NCBI GenBank assembly: GCA_031266545.1 | Contig: JAISAV010000078.1 | Coordinates: 1-47,708 of the forward strand | From: Odoribacteraceae bacterium | GTDB lineage: Bacteria; Bacteroidota; Bacteroidia; Bacteroidales; Marinifilaceae | Reading direction: 5' to 3' | DNA: 47,708 bases | Shown here: piece after piece, positions 1 through 22,201 of the stretch | Position numbering within the stretch: the stretch's first letter is position 1 | Layout: every line of letters begins with the position of its first letter | The notes under the pieces: model-generated | What the model saw: the letters and a program-made list of their open reading frames with translations, nothing else | What the model was told of the DNA's origin: nothing | Databases searched by the model: none | Translations under genes and position numbers: made by a program

Positions 1-478
1 GACTGGTGTTCTCCTGCCCTTCGACGCGCTTCAAGGCCTTCTTGAGGGCTTCTAACGGGTAGGTTGTTTCAAGCGTGGCGCCCACGCTCCAACCGACGAT
101 TTCTTCCGTGTAAGCATCCAGCACCAGCGAGAGATAGCAGAAGAGATAAGCGTGTTCATCCCGGCACACGGGAATGTATGTTATATCGCTTACCCATAAC
201 TGGTTGTGCGCATAGGGGATAAAGTCCCTGATGATGTTCGGGTAGAGAGACAGGCCGCACGTGGAGTCGGTTGTCCTGGGCTTCCTCGTCCTTGCCCTGA
301 CCTTGAGCCCGTGGCGGTCAATCATACCCTCGAAGCGGTCGCGACCTGCCGGGTTGTTGCCCCCGAACGCTTTACTGTACATGTGCCAGGGCTTCAGCCC
401 GCCTATGCCGGGGTCTTTTTCCCGTATTTCATGGATGTATTGTATCACGAATTCCTCCCGGGCGACCTTGAGAAGCAT
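1..478 (-). CDS. IS3-family transposase, OrfB/integrase-core protein (N-terminal part; runs off the left edge)
   Basis: Minus-strand ATG at 478, open to position 1. It is absent from the ORF track because there is no stop inside the window. My translation: MLLKVAREEFVIQYIHEIREKDPGIGGLKPWHMYSKAFGGNNPAGRDRFEGMIDRHGLKVRARTRKPRTTDSTCGLSLYPNIIRDFIPYAHNQLWVSDITYIPV... The RKPRTTDS..YPN..NQLWVSDITYI block is the HTH-to-rve junction typical of IS3-family OrfB. No OrfA-like ORF lies upstream. Confidence 0.8.
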   Translation of the reverse strand, partial: MLLKVAREEFVIQYIHEIREKDPGIGGLKPWHMYSKAFGGNNPAGRDRFEGMIDRHGLKVRARTRKPRTTDSTCGLSLYPNIIRDFIPYAHNQLWVSDITYIPVCRDEHAYLFCYLSLVLDAYTEEIVGWSVGATLETTYPLEALKKALKRVEGQENTS

Positions 479-1066: not shown

Positions 1067-4000
1067 ATGAAAAAAAAATTGATCTACATGTTCCTGCTCT
1101 TGCATTTTTCCATGCAGGCGGGGGCGCAAGAGTTACAAGTTTCGGGTAAAGTCACCTCGAGCGACGGGATCTCCCTCCCCGGCGTGACCGTCCTCCAGCG
1201 GGGCACGCGACGGGGGGTGACCACCGACGCGAGGGGCGAGTACGCGATCTCGGTGCCCGCCGGCGCCGAGCTACAATTTTCGTATATCGGCTTCAAGAGC
1301 CAGGTAATCAACGTCGGCCACCGCACGCGCGTGAACGTGCGGATGGAGGAGGAGATCCGCGAGATCGACGAGGTGATCGTGGTGGCTTACGGCACGGCCA
1401 AGAAAGAGTCCTTCACGGGATCCATCGCCACGATCAAGGACGATAAGCTGGCGTCGCGCCAGGTCTCCAACGTGACCAGCGCCCTGTCCGGGCAGTTGCC
1501 CGGCGTGCAGGTGCGTAGCGGCAACGGCCAGCCGGGAGTCACGTCCACCGTGCGCATCCGGGGCATCGGCTCGCTGTCGGCCGGTAACGCGCCGCTGTAC
1601 GTGGTGGACGGGGTGCCCTACGACGGGGACATTTCCTCCATCAACAGCGCCGACATCGAGTCGATCAACGTCCTGAAGGACGCCGCCTCCAACGCCCTCT
1701 ACGGCGCCCGCGGGGCGAACGGCGTCATCCTGATCACGACGAAGCGGGCCAAGACGGCCGAGGCGCTCGTCTCGGTGGAGGCCCGCTGGGGTAATAACTC
1801 GCGCGCGGTGCCCAACTACCGGGTGTTGAAGGATCCCGGCGTCTACCTCGAGAAGGTTTACGAGGCCATGTACAACGGTTTCGCCGCCTCCATGACCGCG
1901 CCGAACGCGCGCCTGGCCGTGTTGAGGGACATCGCCACGAACAGCAACGGCGGCGTGGGCTACCGCGTGCACGCCCTCCCGGCGGGCGAGGATCTCTTCG
2001 ACGCCAACGGGAAGTTGAACCCGAACGCCACGCTCGGCTACAGCGACGGGAAGTACACCTACCGCCCCGACGACTGGTACAAGGAGCTGTTCGACAGCGG
2101 CAACCTGCGGCAGGAGTACAACGTCTCCGTCTCGGGACTGACGGAGAAGCTCAACTACTACCTCTCGCTGGGCTACCTCGATGACTCGGGGATCATGGCC
2201 GGGTCGGGCTTCAAGCGTTACACCTCCCGCGCGAACGTGGACTACCAGGCCAAGGGCTGGCTGAAGGTGGGCAGCCGCGTCGCGTACACGCGCTACGACA
2301 TGCAATATCCCCCCGACCAGACTTCCAGCGGGAGTTCCGGCAACCTCTTCTACCTCGCCAACAACATCGCCCCCGTCTACCCGCTCTACGTGCGGGACGA
2401 CAAGGGCAACATCATGACGGATAATCGCGGTTTCACCGTCTACGATTTCGGCGACCTGTCCAGCACCAATTTCAGCCGCACCTTCATGAGCGGCTCCAAC
2501 CCGGCCTCGCTCAGCAAGCTGGACAGGCGGAATTACGCGGCGGACGTCTTCAGCGGTCGCTGGTTCGCCGCGGTGGAGTTCGTGAAGGGGCTGACGTTCA
2601 CGTATAACTTCGGCGCCGACATCGACAACACCCGCTACTCTCGCCTCTACAACGCCTACTACGGGCAGTACTCCAAGGTGGGGGGTATCGTCTACGTCGG
2701 GCATGACCGCACCTCCTCCATCAACCACCAGCAGTTGCTGGCCTACACCGTCGCGTTCGACGACCTGCACTCCCTCGACGTGCTGCTGGGGCACGAGTCC
2801 TACGCCCTGGAACTGAAAAGCCTGCTGGCGAAGAAGGAGAAACTCTACGACCCGGGCGTCGTCGAGATCGACAACGGGATCCTGACGCCCTCGGCCAGCT
2901 CGAACGCCAACCGCTACGGGACGGAAGGCTGGTTCGGGCGCGCGCGGTACGAGTTTGACCGTTCCTACATCGTCAGCCTCTCGTACCGCCGCGACGCCTC
3001 CTCGCGTTTCCACGGGGCCAACCGCTGGGGTAACTTCGGCAGCGTGGGGGGCGCGTGGCTGGCCAGCCGCGAGCCGTTCCTCGCCGACCGGGCATGGATC
3101 GATTTCCTCAAGGTCAAGGCCAGCTACGGGATACAGGGGAACGACGACCTCCTCTACCAGGACGGCACCAAGAACTATTACCCGGACAGGGACCAGTACA
3201 CGCTGAGCGAGAATAACGGCGACTTCGCCCTCAACCTGACCTACAAGGGGAACAGGGACATCACGTGGGAGACCTCCCGCTCGTTCAACGCCGGCGTCGA
3301 CTTCTCGCTGTGGAACGGCCGGCTGTCGGGAACGCTCGAGTACTTCTCGCGCGTCACCGACGACATGCTCTACTACCGTCCCGTCTCCCTGTCGGGCGGT
3401 TACGCCTCCCTCCCCTCGAACATCGGCAAGGTCTCGAATAGCGGGCTGGAGGTCGGCCTGAACTCCACGCTCGTCGCGACGGGCAAGGCGCGTCTCTCCC
3501 TCTTCGCCAACGCGACGCTGCTGAGGAACAGGATCAAGTCCCTCGCCCCCGAGTTGCAGGGAGAGTTGATCGACGGGACGAACATCTTCCGGGAGGGGGA
3601 ATCCATCTACCAGCTCTACTTCGCGCGCTACGCCGGCGTGGACGCGGACGGGAAGGCCCTCTATCACGTGGAGGACAAGGCGACGGGAAACCTCTCCACG
3701 ACCACGGACTGGCCGCTGGCCACGAAACGCGCCACCGGTGACCTGTTGCCCGACCTCTACGGGGGATTTGGCTTCACGCTCGACGCGTACGGCTTCGACC
3801 TCTCGTTCTCGGCCGCCTACCAGCTCGGAGGCAAGATCCTCGACTCCGGCTACCAGGGGCTGATGCACGCCGGGTCGGCCTCCACCGCCGGGCAAAACTG
3901 GCACGAGGACATCCTCGGCTCGTGGTCGACCACCAACGCGACCTCCCGCGTCCCGCGCGTGGGGGCCAACGATACCTACGCCAATTCCACGTCGGATCGC

Positions 4001-4237
4001 TTCCTGATCAGCTCGAATTACCTCGACATCACGAACATCTCGCTGGGATACACGCTCCCCGCCTCGTTCCTCGAGCAACTCGACATCGTCGACCTGCGCG
4101 TCTACGGCGTGGCCGATAACATCGCCCTGTTCACCCGGCGCCGGGGCCTCGACCCGCGACAATCCTACACCTCCGTCAACGCGGCCCGCTACTCGCCCAT
4201 CCGCGCCGTGTCCGGGGGCCTGAGTTTTAAATTTTAA
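1067..4237 (+). CDS. SusC/RagA-family TonB-dependent outer-membrane receptor (pair 1)
   Basis: ORF 977..4237, trimmed to ATG 1067 (MKKKLIYMFLLLHFSMQAGAQE signal peptide). Carboxypeptidase-regulatory-like N-domain (VSGKVTSSDGISLPGVTVLQRGTRRGVTTDARGEYAISVP). Plug/TonB-box region (IDEVIVVAYGTAKKESFTGS, NALYGARGANGVILITTKR). Aromatic C-terminus ..GGLSFKF. A SusD-like gene follows 12 nt downstream. Confidence 0.93.
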   Translation: MKKKLIYMFLLLHFSMQAGAQELQVSGKVTSSDGISLPGVTVLQRGTRRGVTTDARGEYAISVPAGAELQFSYIGFKSQVINVGHRTRVNVRMEEEIREIDEVIVVAYGTAKKESFTGSIATIKDDKLASRQVSNVTSALSGQLPGVQVRSGNGQPGVTSTVRIRGIGSLSAGNAPLYVVDGVPYDGDISSINSADIESINVLKDAASNALYGARGANGVILITTKRAKTAEALVSVEARWGNNSRAVPNYRVLKDPGVYLEKVYEAMYNGFAASMTAPNARLAVLRDIATNSNGGVGYRVHALPAGEDLFDANGKLNPNATLGYSDGKYTYRPDDWYKELFDSGNLRQEYNVSVSGLTEKLNYYLSLGYLDDSGIMAGSGFKRYTSRANVDYQAKGWLKVGSRVAYTRYDMQYPPDQTSSGSSGNLFYLANNIAPVYPLYVRDDKGNIMTDNRGFTVYDFGDLSSTNFSRTFMSGSNPASLSKLDRRNYAADVFSGRWFAAVEFVKGLTFTYNFGADIDNTRYSRLYNAYYGQYSKVGGIVYVGHDRTSSINHQQLLAYTVAFDDLHSLDVLLGHESYALELKSLLAKKEKLYDPGVVEIDNGILTPSASSNANRYGTEGWFGRARYEFDRSYIVSLSYRRDASSRFHGANRWGNFGSVGGAWLASREPFLADRAWIDFLKVKASYGIQGNDDLLYQDGTKNYYPDRDQYTLSENNGDFALNLTYKGNRDITWETSRSFNAGVDFSLWNGRLSGTLEYFSRVTDDMLYYRPVSLSGGYASLPSNIGKVSNSGLEVGLNSTLVATGKARLSLFANATLLRNRIKSLAPELQGELIDGTNIFREGESIYQLYFARYAGVDADGKALYHVEDKATGNLSTTTDWPLATKRATGDLLPDLYGGFGFTLDAYGFDLSFSAAYQLGGKILDSGYQGLMHAGSASTAGQNWHEDILGSWSTTNATSRVPRVGANDTYANSTSDRFLISSNYLDITNISLGYTLPASFLEQLDIVDLRVYGVADNIALFTRRRGLDPRQSYTSVNAARYSPIRAVSGGLSFKF

Positions 4238-4249
4238 CACGTTAATATC

Positions 4250-5845
4250 ATGAAAACACGAAGATTATACATCGCCTGCGTCGCCCTGCTGTGCGCCGCG
4301 TGCGACCTCGAACTTGACCCCGCGGGCGCGACCTTCACCGGGGGGCAGAAGGACAAGCTCGCGGCCCTCGACCCCGACAAACTGCAATCGGACGTCAACG
4401 GCCTGTACGCCGGGCTGATCCGCCTCGAGTCTATCGCCTCGTGGGCCGGCACCACCCTCCATTTCGACTTCGGCTACCCGGCCGCCTGCATGATGTTCGA
4501 CGCCTCCGGCATGGACGTGGCGTCGGAAAATAGCGGCTACAACTGGTTCAGGCGCGAGCAAGACTTCACCGACCGCGTGGCCAACGGCAGGGAGACCTAT
4601 TTCCTGTGGAACCTCTTCTACTCCCACGCCAAGACGGCGAACGACATCATCCGGGCCATCGACCCCGCGACCGACGACAAGACCCTGAAAGGCTACCTCG
4701 GGCAGGCGCTCGCCTCCCGCGCCTTCGACTACCTGCACCTCGCGCAGGTCTACCAGTTCACCTACGCCGGGAATGAGCAGGCGCTCGCCGTCCCCCGCGT
4801 GACGGAGAAGACCCCGGCGGATTCTATTAACGATAACCCCCGCGAGACCGTGGAACGCCTCTACGCCTTTATCCTCGAGGACCTCACGCGGGCCATCGAC
4901 CTGCTCGACGGCTTTGACCGGAAGGGCCGCAAGGAGTGCATCGACCAGAACGTGGCCCACGGCCTCCGCGCCCGCGCCCACCTCTTGATGGAGCGCTGGG
5001 ACGAGGCCGCCGCGGACGCTGAAAAGGCCATCGCGGGTTTCACCCCCTACTCCACCGGTGACGTGTCGAAACCCTCGTTCAACAACATCGCCGCCGCCTC
5101 GTGGATATGGGGCTGCGCCATCACGGAAAATAACGACGTGGTGCAATCGGGCATCGTCAACTTCCCCTCGCACATGTGCAGCCTCACCGGCAACGGCTAC
5201 GCCCCCGCCTACGCGGGACGCTACATCAACGACGCGCTCTGGGACAAGATCCCCTACACGGACGTCCGCAAGGGCTGGTGGCTCGACCGGGACATGAAGT
5301 CCCCGAACGTCGACACCACCTGGACGATCGTCTACAACGGCACGCGGTACGACCTCGCCACGTGGTTCGAGTTCCAGGCCCCTTACCTGAACATGAAGTT
5401 CGGCCCCTATCAAGACGTCTACAACAATCCCGTCAACGCCTGTGACTTCCCGCTGATGCGCGTCGAGGAGATGATGCTCGTCCGCGCCGAGGGCCTCGGC
5501 ATGGGGAGCAACTTCGCCGCGGGACAGCAGGCGCTGGTCGATTTCGTGCGCGCTTACCGTTGCCCGGACTTCCTCTCGCTCGCCTCCACGCCGCGGGAGT
5601 TGCAGGACGAGATCTGGTTCCAGCGCCGCGTCGAGCTGTGGGGCGAGGGCTTCTCGCTCTTCGACCTCAAGCGGCTGAAGAAACCGCTGCACCGCCTCGG
5701 CACGAATTTCCCGGAGAACGTCTGCTTCGACCTGGCCACGGAAGCGCCCATCCTCCTGTGGCTGATCCCCGAAAGCGAGATGAACACGAACAAGGGTATA
5801 CAGGAAAATAACCCCGTGGTACCGATCCCGACCCTGACCCCGTGA
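4250..5845 (+). CDS. SusD/RagB-family nutrient-binding outer-membrane lipoprotein (pair 1)
   Basis: Lipoprotein signal MKTRRLYIACVALLCAAC. 531 aa. Position directly after the SusC-like gene. SusD-like C-terminal region (EIWFQRRVELWGEGFSLFDLKRL). Confidence 0.9.
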   Translation: MKTRRLYIACVALLCAACDLELDPAGATFTGGQKDKLAALDPDKLQSDVNGLYAGLIRLESIASWAGTTLHFDFGYPAACMMFDASGMDVASENSGYNWFRREQDFTDRVANGRETYFLWNLFYSHAKTANDIIRAIDPATDDKTLKGYLGQALASRAFDYLHLAQVYQFTYAGNEQALAVPRVTEKTPADSINDNPRETVERLYAFILEDLTRAIDLLDGFDRKGRKECIDQNVAHGLRARAHLLMERWDEAAADAEKAIAGFTPYSTGDVSKPSFNNIAAASWIWGCAITENNDVVQSGIVNFPSHMCSLTGNGYAPAYAGRYINDALWDKIPYTDVRKGWWLDRDMKSPNVDTTWTIVYNGTRYDLATWFEFQAPYLNMKFGPYQDVYNNPVNACDFPLMRVEEMMLVRAEGLGMGSNFAAGQQALVDFVRAYRCPDFLSLASTPRELQDEIWFQRRVELWGEGFSLFDLKRLKKPLHRLGTNFPENVCFDLATEAPILLWLIPESEMNTNKGIQENNPVVPIPTLTP

Positions 5846-5849
5846 TCGC

Positions 5850-6143
5850 TTGAAAAGTTTCCGGGGGTGCCCGGAAAGATTCCGGGCATCCCCGGAAGGA
5901 TTCCGGGCACCCCCGGGAAGATTCCGGGCACTCCCGGAAAGATTCCGGGCACCCCCGGAAAGATTCCGGGCACCCCCGGAAAGATTCCGGGCACTCCCGG
6001 AAAGATTCCGGGCACCCCCGGAAAGATTCCGGGCACTCCCGGAAAGATTCCGGGCACCCCCGGGAAGATTCCGGGCACCCCCGGGAAGATTCCGGGCACC
6101 CCCGGAAAGATTCCGGGTGCTACCGGAAAGTTCCCGGGGCTAA
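5850..6143. repeat. Tandem array of a 21-bp hairpin-forming unit (CCGGAAAGATTCCGGGCACCC), 12 good copies plus a degenerate copy at each end
   Basis: Read directly. Units start at 5871, 5892, 5913 and so on to 6102, with degenerate units at about 5850 and 6123. Each unit holds the inverted repeat CCCGGA(A)/(T)TCCGGG. The array fills the whole gap between the SusD stop (5845) and the convergent GT2 stop (6140-6142). No spacers, so it is not a CRISPR. All frames are open on both strands, as expected for a 21-bp repeat. Confidence 0.95.
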
Positions 6144-7213
6144 TAATATTTCTTGGAGAAGCCCCTGGGGGCGCGGCCCCGCGCGAGGCACCACCCTCCC
6201 CACAGCAGGCCAAGCCCGTAGGCGCCGACCTGTATCGTGAGCGTGACGACGGAGAGCATGGCCACGCGCGGGCTGCCGTGCCTGAGTCCCGACTGGCAAA
6301 AGGCCACGAGGCACGCGGCCAGGTATCCCCCGCCCGCGCAAGCCCACGCCACCCGCGTGAACGCGGCGGCGGGGAAGAACGCCGTCACCGCGCACAGGAG
6401 CGACAATCCCGCGAGCAACGCGGCGGGGAGCAGGTGCACGGGGCGCAGCGTGCCGGGATGCGCCCGGGAGAGGTTGACGCGGGCCACCCCCCAGTTGAAT
6501 ACCTGCCGGAAAAACTTGGGGAGGCTCGTGCGGCGCTTGTGGTAGACGTACGCGCCGGGGATCAGGCCGACGGAGAATCCTGCGGCGTAGACGCGCATGG
6601 AGTAGTCCATGTCTTGCCCGTGGCGCAGGTCGCCCATCTCGCCGATCGTCTCGCGGACGCGCCGGGAGATGCCCATGTTGAAGCTGCGGGGGTAGAAGCG
6701 GCCGACGCTTTTCCGGCCGCCGCGCGTGCCTCCCGTGCCGATAAAGGAGGTCATGGAGTAGTTAATGGCCTTGAGCAGGGGGGGGAAAGAGGGGTGGCAC
6801 GTGTCCGGGCCGCCGAAGGCGTCGAGGGGTTTCGCCGCCATCGCCCGCTCGATCTCGGCGAGCCAGCAGGGGGGAAAGGTGCAGTCGGAGTCGACGAAGA
6901 TGAAGTACTCCCCCCGCGCCACCCTCATGCCGTGGTTGCGGGCGGCCCCCGGCCCGCGGTTTTGCTGGAAGACGGCGCGGACGCGCAGGCCGGAAGGCGA
7001 GACGCGGCGCTCGATAAAATCGCGGAAACCGTCCCGCGAGCCGTCGTCCACGAAGATGATCTCGAAGGAGGCGCGGTCGCCTTCTAGTCGCTCGGCGCTC
7101 TCGAGCAGTTCCCGGGCCTCCTCCACCCGGTTGTAGATGGCGATGATCACCGACCAGCGGCAGGGGGTCTCCTTGTTTGTCGTCTCGTTCATTTCGCGGG
7201 GGTGTTTGGTCAT
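6140..7213 (-). CDS. Family-2 glycosyltransferase (GT-A fold) with C-terminal transmembrane helices
   Basis: ORF 6140..7885, trimmed to ATG 7213 (MTKHPREMNE..). Motifs: WSVIIAIYNRVEE, IIFVDDGSRDG, FIFVDSDC (DxD), GQDMDYSMRV, VYHKRR. Hydrophobic C-terminal third. Its ATG overlaps the upstream stop as ATGA (7210-7213). Confidence 0.85.
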   Translation of the reverse strand: MTKHPREMNETTNKETPCRWSVIIAIYNRVEEARELLESAERLEGDRASFEIIFVDDGSRDGFRDFIERRVSPSGLRVRAVFQQNRGPGAARNHGMRVARGEYFIFVDSDCTFPPCWLAEIERAMAAKPLDAFGGPDTCHPSFPPLLKAINYSMTSFIGTGGTRGGRKSVGRFYPRSFNMGISRRVRETIGEMGDLRHGQDMDYSMRVYAAGFSVGLIPGAYVYHKRRTSLPKFFRQVFNWGVARVNLSRAHPGTLRPVHLLPAALLAGLSLLCAVTAFFPAAAFTRVAWACAGGGYLAACLVAFCQSGLRHGSPRVAMLSVVTLTIQVGAYGLGLLWGGWCLARGRAPRGFSKKYY

Positions 7214-19302: not shown

Positions 19303-19341
19303 CCGGTGTAAAACCGGTCTACCCCTGGACACGGGACAAAA

Positions 19342-19381
19342 AAATCTCCCGCCTCGTTCGCGAGACGGGAGATTTATTTTT
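19342..19381. terminator. Bidirectional intrinsic terminator between convergent genes
   Basis: AAATCTCCCG-N14-CGGGAGATTT (10-bp stem, 19342-19375). Flanked by an A-run on the left and ATTTTT on the right, so it can serve both the Calx-beta gene (+) and the 19398..20855 gene (-). Confidence 0.8.
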
Positions 19382-19397
19382 CACGAGGCGCGGGAGA

Positions 19398-20861: not shown

Positions 20862-21470
20862 TTATTCGTCAAGGTTAATATACATGCCCCCCGTCTTCAG
20901 CACGAGACCGTGCAGCAAGAGGTAATCGTCCAGGTCTATATCGACGGTCGAGAGTCCCGTGAAGACGAACGTGATCTTCACCCCGCGCGCCTCCTGCATG
21001 TACTGCATGGCTTCCGCGTCGATATGCATCGAGAACTCTTGCTCCCTGGCGTTATAGATGCTCCCGCTCCGGATGGTGACGGCGCCGATCACCTCGTTGT
21101 CCGCGTCCAGCACGTTCAGTTCCGTGAGGATCGCGGCGTCGCTACCGAGGTTAGCGATGTTCAGGTCTATTTTCCCTTCCAGCGAGGCTGCCTTCGCCCC
21201 CTCGAAGAAGAACTTGTTCACGATATCCTCCGTGAAGATATCCTTGACGACATACTCCATGGCAAACGTGCCGGGCCTTCCCGGCAATTCCACTTCCACG
21301 AGGTTCGTCTTGAACCACGCCGTGTCCACGCTCCCCACCGGCACGGGGGGGATGTTAAACACCGCGTCATAATCCAACTCGTCCAGATCGTAATCCGGGT
21401 CCACGCAGGCTTGCAGGCCGAAACACAGCAAGCCGGCGAGCGCGATTCTTAATGATAAAATTTTATACAT
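20862..21470 (-). CDS. Hypothetical lipoprotein, co-transcribed with the barrel gene
   Basis: Lipobox FGLQAC. 202 aa and acidic. Only a 6-nt gap to the downstream barrel gene. I recognise no family. Confidence 0.65.
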   Translation of the reverse strand: MYKILSLRIALAGLLCFGLQACVDPDYDLDELDYDAVFNIPPVPVGSVDTAWFKTNLVEVELPGRPGTFAMEYVVKDIFTEDIVNKFFFEGAKAASLEGKIDLNIANLGSDAAILTELNVLDADNEVIGAVTIRSGSIYNAREQEFSMHIDAEAMQYMQEARGVKITFVFTGLSTVDIDLDDYLLLHGLVLKTGGMYINLDE

Positions 21471-21580: not shown

Positions 21581-21680
21581 TTTTTTGAATGGCTATTCGT
21601 TGTGAAACGAATAGCTATCCGATTTTTTTGAATAGCTATCCATTTTGAAACGAATAGTTATTCGTTTTTTGAATAGCTAT
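21581..21680. repeat. Five phased copies of decamer GAATAGCTAT (2.4 copies of a 43-bp unit), with embedded palindromes
   Basis: Copies at 21587 (GAATGGCTAT), 21609, 21630, 21652 (GAATAGTTAT) and 21671. Spacing is 22, 21, 22 and 19 bp. Flanks alternate between a T6-7 run and GAAAC. Inverted repeats: GCTATTCGTT-GTGA-AACGAATAGC (21592-21615) and AAACGAAT-AGTT-ATTCGTTT (21648-21667). Confidence 0.9.
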
Positions 21681-21874: not shown

Positions 21875-21875
21875 G

Positions 21876-21960
21876 TACTCGAGGCGGGACTTGAACCCGC
21901 ACAACCGCAATGGTCACGGGATTTTAAGTCCCGCGTGTCTACCGATTCCACCACTCGAGC
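21876..21960 (-). tRNA. tRNA-Leu (anticodon UAA)
   Basis: Minus strand: GCTCGAGTGGTGGAATCGGTAGACACGCGGGACTTAAAATCCCGTGACCATTGCGGTTGTGCGGGTTCAAGTCCCGCCTCGAGTA. Anticodon stem CGGGA/TCCCG with loop CTTAAAA. Long variable arm (class II). T-arm GCGGG-TTCAAGT-CCCGC. CCA is not encoded. Confidence 0.93.
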
Positions 21961-22163: not shown

Positions 22164-22189
22164 AAAAAACCCCGGGGGGATCCCCGGGG
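22164..22189 (-). terminator. Intrinsic terminator ending the long SusC/D array
   Basis: On the minus strand: CCCCGGGG-ATCC-CCCCGGGG followed by TTTTTT. Starts 13 nt after the SusD stop (22202). Confidence 0.8.
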
Positions 22190-22201
22190 CGTATGTGGTA
22201 T

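What the first reader, a model, noticed from the sequence alone, without database searches (positions are those of the whole stretch)
5850..6143. A 21-bp hairpin unit repeated about 13 times fills the whole convergent intergenic gap
The unit CCGGAAAGATTCCGGGCACCC repeats head to tail from just after the SusD stop to the stop codon of the convergent GT2 gene.

Each unit carries the 7-nt inverted repeat CCCGGAA/TTCCGGG. The array can therefore fold in two registers: hairpins with an AGA loop or hairpins with a CACC loop. It could also form a long slipped or cruciform structure.

The few substitutions fall in three places:
- the loop (AAGAT to AGGAT)
- the linker (CACC, CACT, CATC)
- the A-to-G change in CCGGGAAG, which keeps pairing as G.U only if the plus-sense RNA (the SusD 3' UTR) is the folded molecule

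The 21-bp period equals two DNA helical turns, so a phased protein-binding array is an alternative reading.

It is not a CRISPR because there are no spacers. It resembles a REP/BIME-type extragenic palindrome cluster, but is unusually regular. Possible roles are a bidirectional terminator or mRNA 3'-end protector, a strain-variable VNTR, or a recombination hotspot.
Basis: seen in the sequence. Interest (0 to 1): 0.7.

Follow-up and report, generated by a model that had tools for sequence, protein, structure and literature searches.

The report
Hairpin minisatellite joining two convergent genes
A 21-base hairpin-forming unit repeated 13 times head to tail fills the gap between a SusD-like gene and a glycosyltransferase gene in an Odoribacteraceae-like bacterium; it looks like a young, lineage-specific minisatellite sitting at a point where gene order differs from relatives, not a conserved regulatory device.

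Summary
Positions 5870-6138 hold 12.8 copies of CCCGGAAAGATTCCGGGCACC at 92% identity. Each unit is a 7-bp hairpin. The array runs from 24 nt after the SusD stop into the GT2 stop codon.

New findings:
- **Lineage-specific.** The array is missing from the orthologous SusD and GT2 flanks of all six relatives I could fetch. The closest one has an ordinary hairpin+T5 terminator there.
- **Synteny breakpoint.** Relatives have AsnB-GT2-GT1. Here GT1 is absent, GT2 lacks its conserved C-terminal "G+2-12 aa", and the last degenerate unit supplies the TAG stop.
- **Not dispersed, as far as visible.** This unit has no other copy in the window, in 185,579 species genomes, or in the metagenome and viral collections.
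- **No T-run inside the array,** although the same window uses canonical terminators elsewhere.
- **Weak structural selection.** Covariation for the hairpin is weak and no protein family matches its reading frames.

Best reading: a recently expanded palindromic minisatellite that replaced the native 3' ends and now acts, by default, as a shared structured 3' region. It fails the REP/BIME, BrickBuilt-MITE, CRISPR and iteron tests.

Main caveat: independent contigs break inside the array, so the inner copy number and even the SusD-GT2 adjacency are unverified. Similar 21-bp arrays in other Bacteroidota hint at a wider family.

The parts
4250..5845 (+). SusD-like gene. Its TGA stop (5843-5845) lies 24 nt before the first full unit.
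   Evidence: Pfam SusD-like_3 and SusD_RagB. Homologues end at the same place.
5849..5869 (.). Degenerate, partly inverted 'unit 0'. TTTCCGGG (5858-5865) + GGTG + CCCGGAAA (5870-5877) form an 8-bp hairpin. On the minus strand this hairpin is followed by CUUUUCAAG, the only terminator-like tail in the gap.
   Evidence: Sequence. Inverted repeat I2, 18 nt, 94% complementary. Hairpin energy is -13.4 kcal/mol (+) and -11.8 kcal/mol (-). It does not pass the T-run criterion of the terminator scan.
5870..6121 (.). Twelve head-to-tail 21-bp units, consensus CCCGGAAAGATTCCGGGCACC. Each has the 7-nt inverted repeat CCCGGAA/TTCCGGG. The interior units are homogenised and the edge units are more diverged.
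   Evidence: TRF, motif search, unit table, folding.
6122..6142 (.). Degenerate last unit ACCGGAAAGTTCCCGGGGCTA. It contains the GT2 stop codon (TAG, 6140-6142 on the minus strand).
   Evidence: DNA homology to GT2 orthologues ends at AAATATTA, just before it.
6140..7213 (-). GT2 glycosyltransferase gene, translationally coupled to AsnB (7210-9165). Its C-terminus stops at ...KKYY, short of the conserved YYG+2-12 aa of 12 homologues.
   Evidence: Pfam, start candidates, protein alignment A1, DNA alignment A2.
5850..6143 (+). Mechanical 97-aa ORF (TTG...TAATAA) exactly co-extensive with the array, reading (P/L)PERFRA heptads. Probably not a gene.
   Evidence: ORF list and six-frame translation, all frames open. 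No match at E<=1e-3 in the 5.8-billion-protein search. Only heterogeneous low-complexity hits among the representatives.

Best explanation
The array is a young, lineage-specific minisatellite (VNTR-type tandem repeat). Its 21-bp unit is a near-perfect palindrome with 7-bp arms, a 3-nt centre and a 4-nt linker. It probably grew by replication slippage or unequal exchange from a short hairpin seed, at a junction created when the SusC/SusD pair came to lie tail-to-tail with the AsnB-GT2 operon.

In the process it replaced the native 3' sequences. The last codons and stop of GT2 are gone, as is whatever terminator followed SusD. Nothing else lies between the two genes, so transcripts from both operons must run into the array. 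It would then act by default as a shared, highly structured 3' region: a stack of about 13 hairpins of -10 kcal/mol each. These would slow RNA polymerase, block 3'-5' exonucleases and limit antisense read-through. The minus-strand (GT2) transcript finally meets the left-end hairpin followed by CUUUUC.

**Shown:** the anatomy, the absence from relatives, the breakpoint position, the GT2 truncation and the lack of T-runs.

**Inferred:** the slippage origin and any termination or stabilisation effect.
For: - **Typical minisatellite signature.** Interior units are identical, edge units are degenerate and all substitutions are transitions.
- **Absent downstream of the SusD orthologues.** In L027 (81% aa identity) SusD is followed by a canonical hairpin+T5 terminator. 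In L029 (70%) the contig ends 41 nt after the stop with no array. In L028 (69%) the array is absent.
- **Absent downstream of the GT2 orthologues.** This holds for L030 (78%), L031 and L032 (72%). AsnB-GT2 is followed 3-10 nt later by a GT1 gene in L030 and L031, whose GT1 proteins are 69% identical to each other, and by a close convergent gene in L032. The GT1 orthologue is absent from the window.
- **GT2 is truncated.** All 12 aligned GT2 homologues continue YYG+2-12 residues, whereas the window protein ends at YY. DNA homology stops at AAATATTA, and the TAG stop lies in the last unit.
- **No other copy of this unit.** None in the window, in 185,579 species genomes, in 241 M metagenome records, in viral contigs, or among called proteins in any frame.
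- **Canonical terminators exist elsewhere in this genome.** Examples are a single bidirectional hairpin in the convergent gap 19303-19397, and 22169-22190. No such terminator occurs in this gap.
- **Mobile DNA is active nearby.** An IS3-type rve transposase fragment at 1-478 lies beside the SusC/D pair.
Against: - **No spanning confirmation.** No independent read or assembly spans the array. Both Logan contigs stop inside it, so the copy number and the SusD-GT2 adjacency rest on one assembly.
- **No function data.** There are no transcript data. Internal hairpins lack U-tracts, so real termination is unproven.
- **Similar arrays elsewhere.** They occur in other Bacteroidota. The L034 consensus is 17/21 identical to the window unit, and L007 (Tannerella MAG) has the same arms. 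A further 21-bp array lies in the ftsI-murE gap of L033. This could mean a transmissible or selected family rather than a purely local accident.
- **Neither adaptive nor neutral is shown.** Hairpin covariation is weak but not zero.
Confidence: 0.55

Rival explanations
1. The window is chimeric at the array. The same 21-bp repeat occurs at two or more loci in this genome, one after SusD and one after GT2, and the assembler joined the wrong flanks through it. The element would then be a dispersed repeat family, and the 'convergent gap' would be an artefact.
For: - The array coincides exactly with a synteny breakpoint.
- The Logan assembly of SRR14710922 breaks on both sides inside the array.
- The inner 159 nt are unconfirmed.
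- The GT1 gene expected after GT2 is missing from the window.
Against: - All k-mers of 77 nt or more across the array are unique, so a large-k assembler can traverse it legitimately.
- The unit-variant order is non-periodic, which is not what a collapsed repeat gives.
- Both flanks have the same composition, and their best homologues come from the same Odoribacteraceae lineage.
- No second copy occurs in 47.7 kb.
Confidence: 0.15
2. It belongs to a mobile or selected family of 21-bp dyad-symmetric repeat arrays of Bacteroidota, built on CCGGAA-N3-TTCCGG. That would be analogous to REP/BIME or to the BrickBuilt minisatellite-MITE. Such arrays would insert or arise next to gene ends and have a conserved role in RNA structure or protein binding.
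For: - L034/L035/L036, from a Bacteroidota carrying a type IX secretion (T9SS) signal domain and recovered from three samples, hold 7.3 units. Their consensus CCCCTGAAAGATTCCGGGGTA is 17/21 identical, ungapped, to the window unit, including the GAAAGATT centre. The array starts about 20 nt after a gene's stop and ends in a long hairpin containing an inverted unit, like the window's left end.
- L007 (Tannerella MAG) holds 10.4 units with the same arms.
- L033 holds about 24 units of 21 bp in the ftsI-murE gap, from the same sample series as the window's relatives.
- L028, a relative, has a 21-bp array with the same 7-4-7-3 geometry but different arms.
- Precedent: BrickBuilt in Porphyromonas gingivalis (PMC4596501).
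Against: - All of these arrays except L028's were found by searches that forced the shared arms or the P-E-x-F-R reading. The similarity beyond that constraint is a few bases and is not statistically secure.
- blastn finds nothing between L033 and the window.
- There is no leader, tail or terminal inverted repeat here, because there is no room.
- In L034 the stems are mostly decayed while the centres are conserved. Pooled covariation is weak.
- The orientation relative to the upstream gene is not consistent between loci.
Confidence: 0.15
3. The array acts on DNA as a phased binding platform. Thirteen 18-bp palindromic operators (TTCCGGG-CACC-CCCGGAA) sit every two helical turns for a dimeric protein, like iterons or a sopC-type centromere, or it forms a cruciform or slipped structure that affects replication or recombination.
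For: - The 21-bp period and the perfect dyad symmetry.
- The breakpoint location is compatible with fragile or recombinogenic DNA.
- In L034 the palindrome centres are better conserved than the stems.
Against: - No isolated site occurs elsewhere in the window.
- No Rep, Par or HTH gene lies beside it, and the context is ordinary chromosome.
- The position is at gene 3' ends, not at a promoter or origin.
- It is absent from relatives.
Confidence: 0.05
4. The array is translated. Either the 97-aa ORF 5850-6143 encodes a basic heptad-repeat peptide (PERFRAP)n, or the array is a stop-codon read-through extension of SusD (PGKIPGT frame) or of GT2.
For: - The period is 7 codons.
- The ORF is exactly co-extensive with the array.
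- The ACC>ACT and GGA>GGG variants are synonymous in the SusD-continuation frame.
- The L034 units read [P/A][E/K][R/K]F[R/K]G[T] with conservative replacements, and were called as a gene.
- 530 heptad proteins match at E<=1e-3.
Against: - All six frames are open, so an ORF is expected by composition.
- The gene caller did not call one here, and the six-frame search found nothing.
- The 530 hits are unrelated low-complexity singletons from eukaryotes and scattered bacteria.
- SusD homologues end at the same residue, so there is no extension.
- There are only four distinct substitution types here, and L034 shows no period-3 bias in its variable sites.
- The C-terminal half of the L034 ORF is antisense to a real gene.
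Confidence: 0.05

Closest known systems
BrickBuilt minisatellite-MITE of Porphyromonas gingivalis (Klein et al. 2015, PMC4596501)
   Same: It is found in Bacteroidales. It is a spacer-less tandem array of a roughly 20-nt unit (23 nt, up to 22.8 copies). [quoted passage not shown]
   Different: [quoted passage not shown] It occurs 19 times per genome and lies 49-591 nt from coding sequences. The array here has no leader or tail, touches both genes and even supplies a stop codon. It has an unrelated unit and no second copy in 47.7 kb.
REP/BIME clusters (repetitive extragenic palindromes) of Proteobacteria
   Same: They are GC-rich palindromic units at the 3' ends of genes and between convergent genes. 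They are thought to stabilise upstream mRNA and attenuate read-through (my own knowledge, plus the review PMC3184786 listed).
   Different: REPs are dispersed in hundreds of copies, cluster in alternating orientation, and are tied to RAYT transposases. Here the units all point the same way, form one locus, and no RAYT gene is seen.
Bacterial VNTR/minisatellites such as mycobacterial MIRUs
   Same: They are head-to-tail intergenic units of tens of bp, with a homogenised interior and degenerate edges. Their period is a multiple of three and they have open frames that touch neighbouring genes' stop or start codons (my own knowledge).
   Different: MIRU units are 40-100 bp, lie inside operons and are not single perfect hairpins. 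Polymorphism could not be tested here.
Bidirectional intrinsic terminators in convergent gaps
   Same: The position is between convergent stops, and the hairpins are GC-rich and fold on both strands. The window itself has a classical example at 19342-19375.
   Different: A classical site is one hairpin flanked by A- and T-tracts. Here there are 13 short hairpins with no T-run.

Membership tests
REP/BIME | Many dispersed copies of the palindromic unit per genome | tested here: inconclusive
   There are no further copies in the 47.7-kb window at up to 3 mismatches. None occur in relatives' loci or in the genome, metagenome or viral collections. The rest of this genome is not available.
REP/BIME | Units clustered in alternating (inverted) orientation | tested here: not met
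   All 13 units keep the same polarity, with an AGA centre and a CACC linker. Only the half-unit at 5849-5869 is inverted.
REP/BIME | Associated RAYT (Y1 transposase) gene | tested here: inconclusive
   None among the window's ORFs. The only transposase is an IS3-type rve fragment at 1-478. This could not be tested genome-wide.
BrickBuilt-type minisatellite MITE | Spacer-less tandem direct repeats, intergenic | tested here: met
BrickBuilt-type minisatellite MITE | Non-repetitive leader and tail ending in terminal inverted repeats | tested here: not met
   Only 24 nt separate the SusD stop from unit 1, and 0 nt separate unit 13 from the GT2 stop. Features as defined in PMC4596501.
Intrinsic (Rho-independent) terminator | GC-rich hairpin immediately followed by a U-tract | tested here: not met
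   The scan finds none in 5846-6142. The nearest case is the left-end hairpin followed by CUUUUC on the minus strand, with 4 T in 8. Canonical examples exist elsewhere in the window.
CRISPR array | Repeats separated by unique spacers; cas genes nearby | tested here: not met
   The units abut with 0% indels. There are no cas domains in the window.
Minisatellite / VNTR | Head-to-tail units of 10-100 bp with a homogenised interior and degenerate edges | tested here: met
Minisatellite / VNTR | Copy-number polymorphism between strains | not testable with these tools
   Only one assembly spans the array, and the Logan contigs break inside it. The diverged L034-type array is identical in three samples.
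Iteron / centromere-like binding array | Cognate binding-protein gene (Rep, ParB or similar) and a replicon or partition context | tested here: not met
   The neighbours are SusC/D, GT2, AsnB and DnaG, and the context is chromosomal.
Heptad-repeat protein gene | Homologues that conserve the peptide while the DNA diverges; a called gene | tested here: inconclusive
   There was no hit at E<=1e-3 in the six-frame search of 5.8 billion proteins. The 530 representative hits are unrelated low-complexity singletons. L034 units show conservative replacements but no period-3 bias.
Structured RNA family (Rfam) | Match to a curated covariance model; covariation supporting the fold | tested here: not met
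   Nothing reaches a gathering score, and the sub-threshold hits are miRNA-precursor-like noise. Paired cells are 86.4% against 84.3% in shuffles (44 of 500 shuffles as high). The covariation score is 0.116 against 0.081 (28 of 500).

The most novel reading that the evidence does not exclude
The array is one member of an undescribed family of 21-bp dyad-symmetric tandem arrays in Bacteroidota, with core CCGGAA-N3-TTCCGG and a GGTACC/GGCACC-type linker. Other members would be the window, the Tannerella MAG L007, the T9SS-bearing bacterium of L034-L036, and perhaps the 500-bp array in the dcw cluster of L033. Such a family would spread between loci and genomes without a recognisable transposon frame. 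It would settle at gene ends, where it can replace stop codons and terminators, and it would be kept by selection on an RNA, DNA-binding or peptide function.
Probability: 0.12. Interest if true: 0.6.

Novelty: new member of a known kind. Interest (0 to 1): 0.33.

Why it matters
If the simple reading holds, this is a clean example of how a minisatellite can overwrite the 3' ends of two bacterial genes. It shortens one protein, supplies its stop codon and stands in for both terminators. That is useful as a caution for annotation and assembly, because short-read contigs break here. It could also serve as a strain marker.

It would matter more if the hinted relatives in other Bacteroidota prove to be one family. 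That would be a new class of repeat element in a phylum whose non-coding repeats are poorly catalogued. It would also offer a testable case of U-tract-less, multi-hairpin 3' ends in Bacteroidota transcription.

Tried and rejected
- **Rfam.** Nothing reaches a gathering score. The e-value mode gives only noise from miRNA-like hairpins.
- **Pattern scans.** I scanned for CCCGGRA-N3-TTCCGGG-N4-CCCGGRA.
  - In species genomes, only two other arrays turned up: L007 (Tannerella) and L010 (an actinomycete, in a convergent gap next to GntR). The rest were single chance hits.
  - In metagenomes, there were only coding-looking heptad stretches in unrelated organisms.
  - In viral contigs there were none.
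- **Six-frame translation of the array against 5.8 billion proteins.** No hit.
- **The 97-aa ORF against 1.84 billion representatives.** There were many hits but no coherent family.
- **Dispersed single hairpins.** None occur in the window or in relatives' loci.
- **blastn of the L033 array region against the window.** Nothing.
- **Hairpin covariation.** Weak across window, L034 and L007 units.
- **Strand asymmetry.** Each array has one strand on which variant units still fold through G.U pairs. There are too few independent events, and the sense relative to the upstream gene is not consistent.
- **Literature searches.** No report of this unit. BrickBuilt is the nearest precedent.
- **Readings considered and rejected.**
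  - CRISPR: there are no spacers.
  - SusD C-terminal extension: homologues end at the same residue.
  - Iteron or centromere: there is no replicon context.

Full report
**1.

Tandem Repeats Finder reports one strong array at 5870-6138: period 21, 12.8 copies, 92% matches, no indels, consensus CCCGGAAAGATTCCGGGCACC. The 17-nt palindromic core, with up to 3 mismatches, occurs at 13 phased + strand positions there. Its only other hit is at 36127 with 3 mismatches, against 0.21 matches expected by chance.

Written out in register:
- Units 4, 5, 7 and 9 are consensus.
- The interior variants are CATC (unit 1), AAG>AGG (unit 2), GGA>GGG (units 3, 10, 11) and CACT (units 3, 6, 8). All are transitions.
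- Units 12 and 13 are clearly more degenerate.
- A degenerate, partly inverted 'unit 0' sits at 5849-5869.

The SusD-like ORF (4250-5845; Pfam SusD-like_3 and SusD_RagB) stops at 5843-5845. The convergent GT2 gene most likely spans 6140-7213 on the minus strand, with its start overlapping the AsnB stop in ATGA. Its TAG stop at 6140-6142 lies inside unit 13.

Folding results:
- Each unit folds in two registers: -9.7 kcal/mol with the AGA loop and -10.3 kcal/mol with the CACC loop.
- The whole stretch folds far better than shuffles on both strands, with z = -10.5 and z = -9.5.
It keeps a full 7-bp stem only in + sense RNA.

**2. Is it real DNA?**

Two Logan contigs from run SRR14710922 carry the identical SusD and GT2 proteins. 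L001 equals window 1359-5928 exactly. L026 equals window 6088-9309 with one SNP. Both end inside the array. So both edges are reproduced by another assembler, and the array is not invented.

The inner 159 nt, the copy number and the physical link between the two flanks rest on the window assembly alone. All k-mers of 77 nt or more across the array are unique, so a large-k assembler could traverse it honestly.

**3. Context**

The window is ordinary Bacteroidales chromosome:
- an IS3-type transposase fragment (1-478)
- SusC/SusD
- GT2-AsnB
- DnaG
- Mfa-type fimbrial genes
- a second PUL with fasciclin-domain proteins
- an ECF sigma factor
- the ilv operon

The best named homologues of SusD and GT2 are from Odoribacteraceae MAGs. 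I saw no RAYT, Rep, Par or cas gene.

**4. Comparison with relatives: the key result**

Downstream of the closest SusD (81% identity, L027) there is a textbook hairpin+T5 terminator and no 21-bp array. Sequence similarity to the window fades about 20 nt after the stop. The 70% and 69% orthologues (L029, L028) also lack the array.

On the other side, the GT2 orthologues (78%, 72%, 72%) sit in AsnB-GT2. They are followed within 3-10 nt by a GT1 gene in L030 and L031, whose GT1 proteins are 69% identical to each other, or by a tight convergent gene in L032. That GT1 gene is not in the window.

In an alignment of 13 GT2 proteins, all 12 homologues continue 'YYG' plus 2-12 residues, while the window protein ends at 'YY'. 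DNA homology stops at AAATATTA, and the next bases, TTAG..., belong to unit 13.

So the array lies exactly at a break in gene order. It has removed the last few GT2 codons and supplies the stop codon. It is therefore recent and lineage-specific, not a conserved device.

**5. Distribution of the unit**

A pattern requiring one and a third units with free loop and linker gave these results:
- **Species genomes (185,579).** No copy of this array. Only two other arrays were found. One is in a Tannerella MAG (L007, 10.4 units, same arms, at a contig end). The other is in an actinomycete MAG (L010, 6.1 units, between a terminator and the stop of a convergent GntR gene).
- **Metagenome records (241 M).** Only 21-nt-period stretches that look coding, in unrelated organisms.
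- **Viral contigs.** Nothing.

A six-frame translation of the array found nothing among 5.8 billion proteins. Within what can be searched, this unit is private to this organism. Contig breaks at such arrays mean that short-read collections under-represent them.

**6. Function**

No unit is followed by a T-run, and the terminator scan finds nothing in the gap. The same window uses canonical terminators at comparable places. These include a single long bidirectional hairpin in the convergent gap 19303-19397, and others at 22169-22190 and 47100-47121.

The only terminator-like feature is the left-end 8-bp hairpin (5858-5877), followed on the minus strand by CUUUUC. The GT2 transcript would reach it after crossing all 13 units.

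Nothing else lies between the genes, so both operons' transcripts must enter the array. The most economical mechanism is a passive one: a stack of stable hairpins that slows polymerase, shields 3' ends and limits antisense read-through. This is inference, as there are no transcript data.

Evidence for selection on the hairpin is weak. Over 21 distinct units pooled from the window, L034 and L007, 86.4% of cells pair against 84.3% in shuffles (44 of 500 as high). The covariation score is 0.116 against 0.081 (28 of 500). Each array has a strand on which variant units still fold through G.U pairs. But the events are few, and the favoured strand is not consistently the sense strand of the upstream gene.

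**7. The coding question**

The period is seven codons and all six frames are open.
- One frame gives a 97-aa ORF (5850-6143, TTG...TAATAA) exactly co-extensive with the array, reading PERFRAP heptads.
- The frame that continues SusD past its TGA reads PGKIPGT, and two of the four variant types are synonymous there.

A search of 1.84 billion representative proteins with the 97-aa ORF gave 530 hits at E<=1e-3. These are unrelated heptad low-complexity sequences: eukaryotic minisatellite ORFs, an SF3B1-like protein, actinobacterial coiled coils, and singleton 'hypothetical proteins' from Verrucomicrobiales, Sorangium and others. SusD homologues end where this SusD ends. I rate translation as unlikely.

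**8. A possible wider family**

Following some of those hits back to DNA was informative.
- **L034/L035/L036.** This is a Bacteroidota with a Por_Secre_tail (T9SS) protein, and the DNA is identical in three samples. It carries 7.3 units whose consensus CCCCTGAAAGATTCCGGGGTA matches the window unit CCCCGGAAAGATTCCGGGCAC at 17 of 21 positions without gaps. The units are only 75% alike among themselves. The array starts about 20 nt after a gene's stop and ends in a long hairpin that includes an inverted unit, which recalls the window's left end.
- **L033.** This comes from the same JGI sample series as the window's relatives. It has about 500 bp of two adjoining 21-bp arrays in the ftsI-murE gap of a dcw cluster.
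- **L037.** It has 16.7 diverged 21-bp units.
- **L028.** This relative has a short 21-bp array with the same 7-4-7-3 geometry but different arms, in a divergent gap.

All of these except L028's were found through searches that force the shared arms or the P-E-x-F-R reading. The similarity beyond that constraint is only a few bases, and blastn sees nothing between L033 and the window. I therefore treat a common family as a live but unproven possibility (about 0.12-0.15).

**9. Comparison with known elements**

- **BrickBuilt** of Porphyromonas gingivalis is the nearest described thing in the same order. It is a spacer-less 23-nt minisatellite that is intergenic, stem-loop forming, restricted to P. 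gingivalis and its close relative P. gulae, and variable in copy number. It is framed by a leader and tail with IS5-like inverted repeats and occurs 19 times per genome (PMC4596501). The array here has no such frame and no second copy in view.
- **REP/BIME** fails on orientation, and on dispersal as far as that is testable.
- **CRISPR, iteron or centromere arrays and Rfam families** fail outright.

It is best filed as a new example of a bacterial intergenic minisatellite with a hairpin unit.

**10. Verdict**

There are two main alternatives. The junction could be an assembly chimera through a dispersed repeat (0.15). Or the array could belong to a wider mobile or selected family (0.15). Interest is modest at 0.33.

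Noticed in passing
window 21581-21680: Five copies of the 12-bp palindrome GAATAGCTATTC (with variants) are spaced 21-22 bp apart. They lie in an AT-rich gap between ORF 20862-21470(-) and tRNA-Leu(taa) 21875-21960(-). This looks like a phased operator or iteron-like site array.
   Followed up: no
window 40870-41143: Two tandem Ile/Leu/Val-rich leader peptides lie upstream of ilvD (41157). They are 40870-40950 (MNKLNLHVILLVTGGIITAGARKACR) and 41015-41077 ([20 protein letters not shown]). Each is followed by a near-identical hairpin+T-run (40968-40999, 41114-41143). This looks like a double transcription attenuator for the ilv operon.
   Followed up: partly
window 47199-47243 (-): An Acido-Lenti-1 RNA (RF01687) match scores 41.1 bits against a gathering score of 37. 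It lies just after the ilvA-like gene. It is preceded by the 7-bp repeats AATTATG x3 and AGTGGTT x2.6, and followed by a roughly 250-nt region rich in nested palindromes (47380-47630).
   Followed up: no
window 1-478 (-): An IS3-type transposase fragment (Pfam rve, E = 2e-8) runs off the window edge, about 500 nt upstream of the SusC gene. It shows that mobile DNA lies beside the SusC/D pair.
   Followed up: partly
L027 3477-3565: In the sibling species (SusD 81% identical), the region after the SusD terminator carries a different tandem array, GTAAGCTATAACGCAACCCACTT x3.8. It runs off the contig end. So the SusD downstream region attracts repeats in both lineages.
   Followed up: no
L028 12384-12485: An Odoribacteraceae relative has six 21-bp units. 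Three of them are perfect hairpins AGCGCGG-NNNN-CCGCGCT-CCG with varying loops, which is the same 7-4-7-3 geometry as the window unit. They lie in a divergent intergenic gap.
   Followed up: partly
L033 2768-3266 and 3404-3443: About 500 bp of two adjoining 21-bp arrays (11.4 and 12.8 copies), plus a 130-nt nested-hairpin segment, fill an 845-nt gap between ftsI and murE in a dcw cluster. That is an unusual place for an insertion, and a gene caller annotated it as a protein.
   Followed up: partly
L022 21-560: A 179-aa ORF made of about 20 diverged heptads (F/L)RExxEx has synonymous codon variation. It comes from an unrelated metagenome organism and looks like a genuine heptad-repeat protein. 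Its DNA is locally the same palindrome as the window unit.
   Followed up: no
window 5870-6138: The array contains 26 CCGG sites, or 97 per kb against 9 per kb in the window as a whole. It also has SmaI-type CCCGGG in three units. This could matter for methylation or restriction, or for sequencing bias.
   Followed up: no
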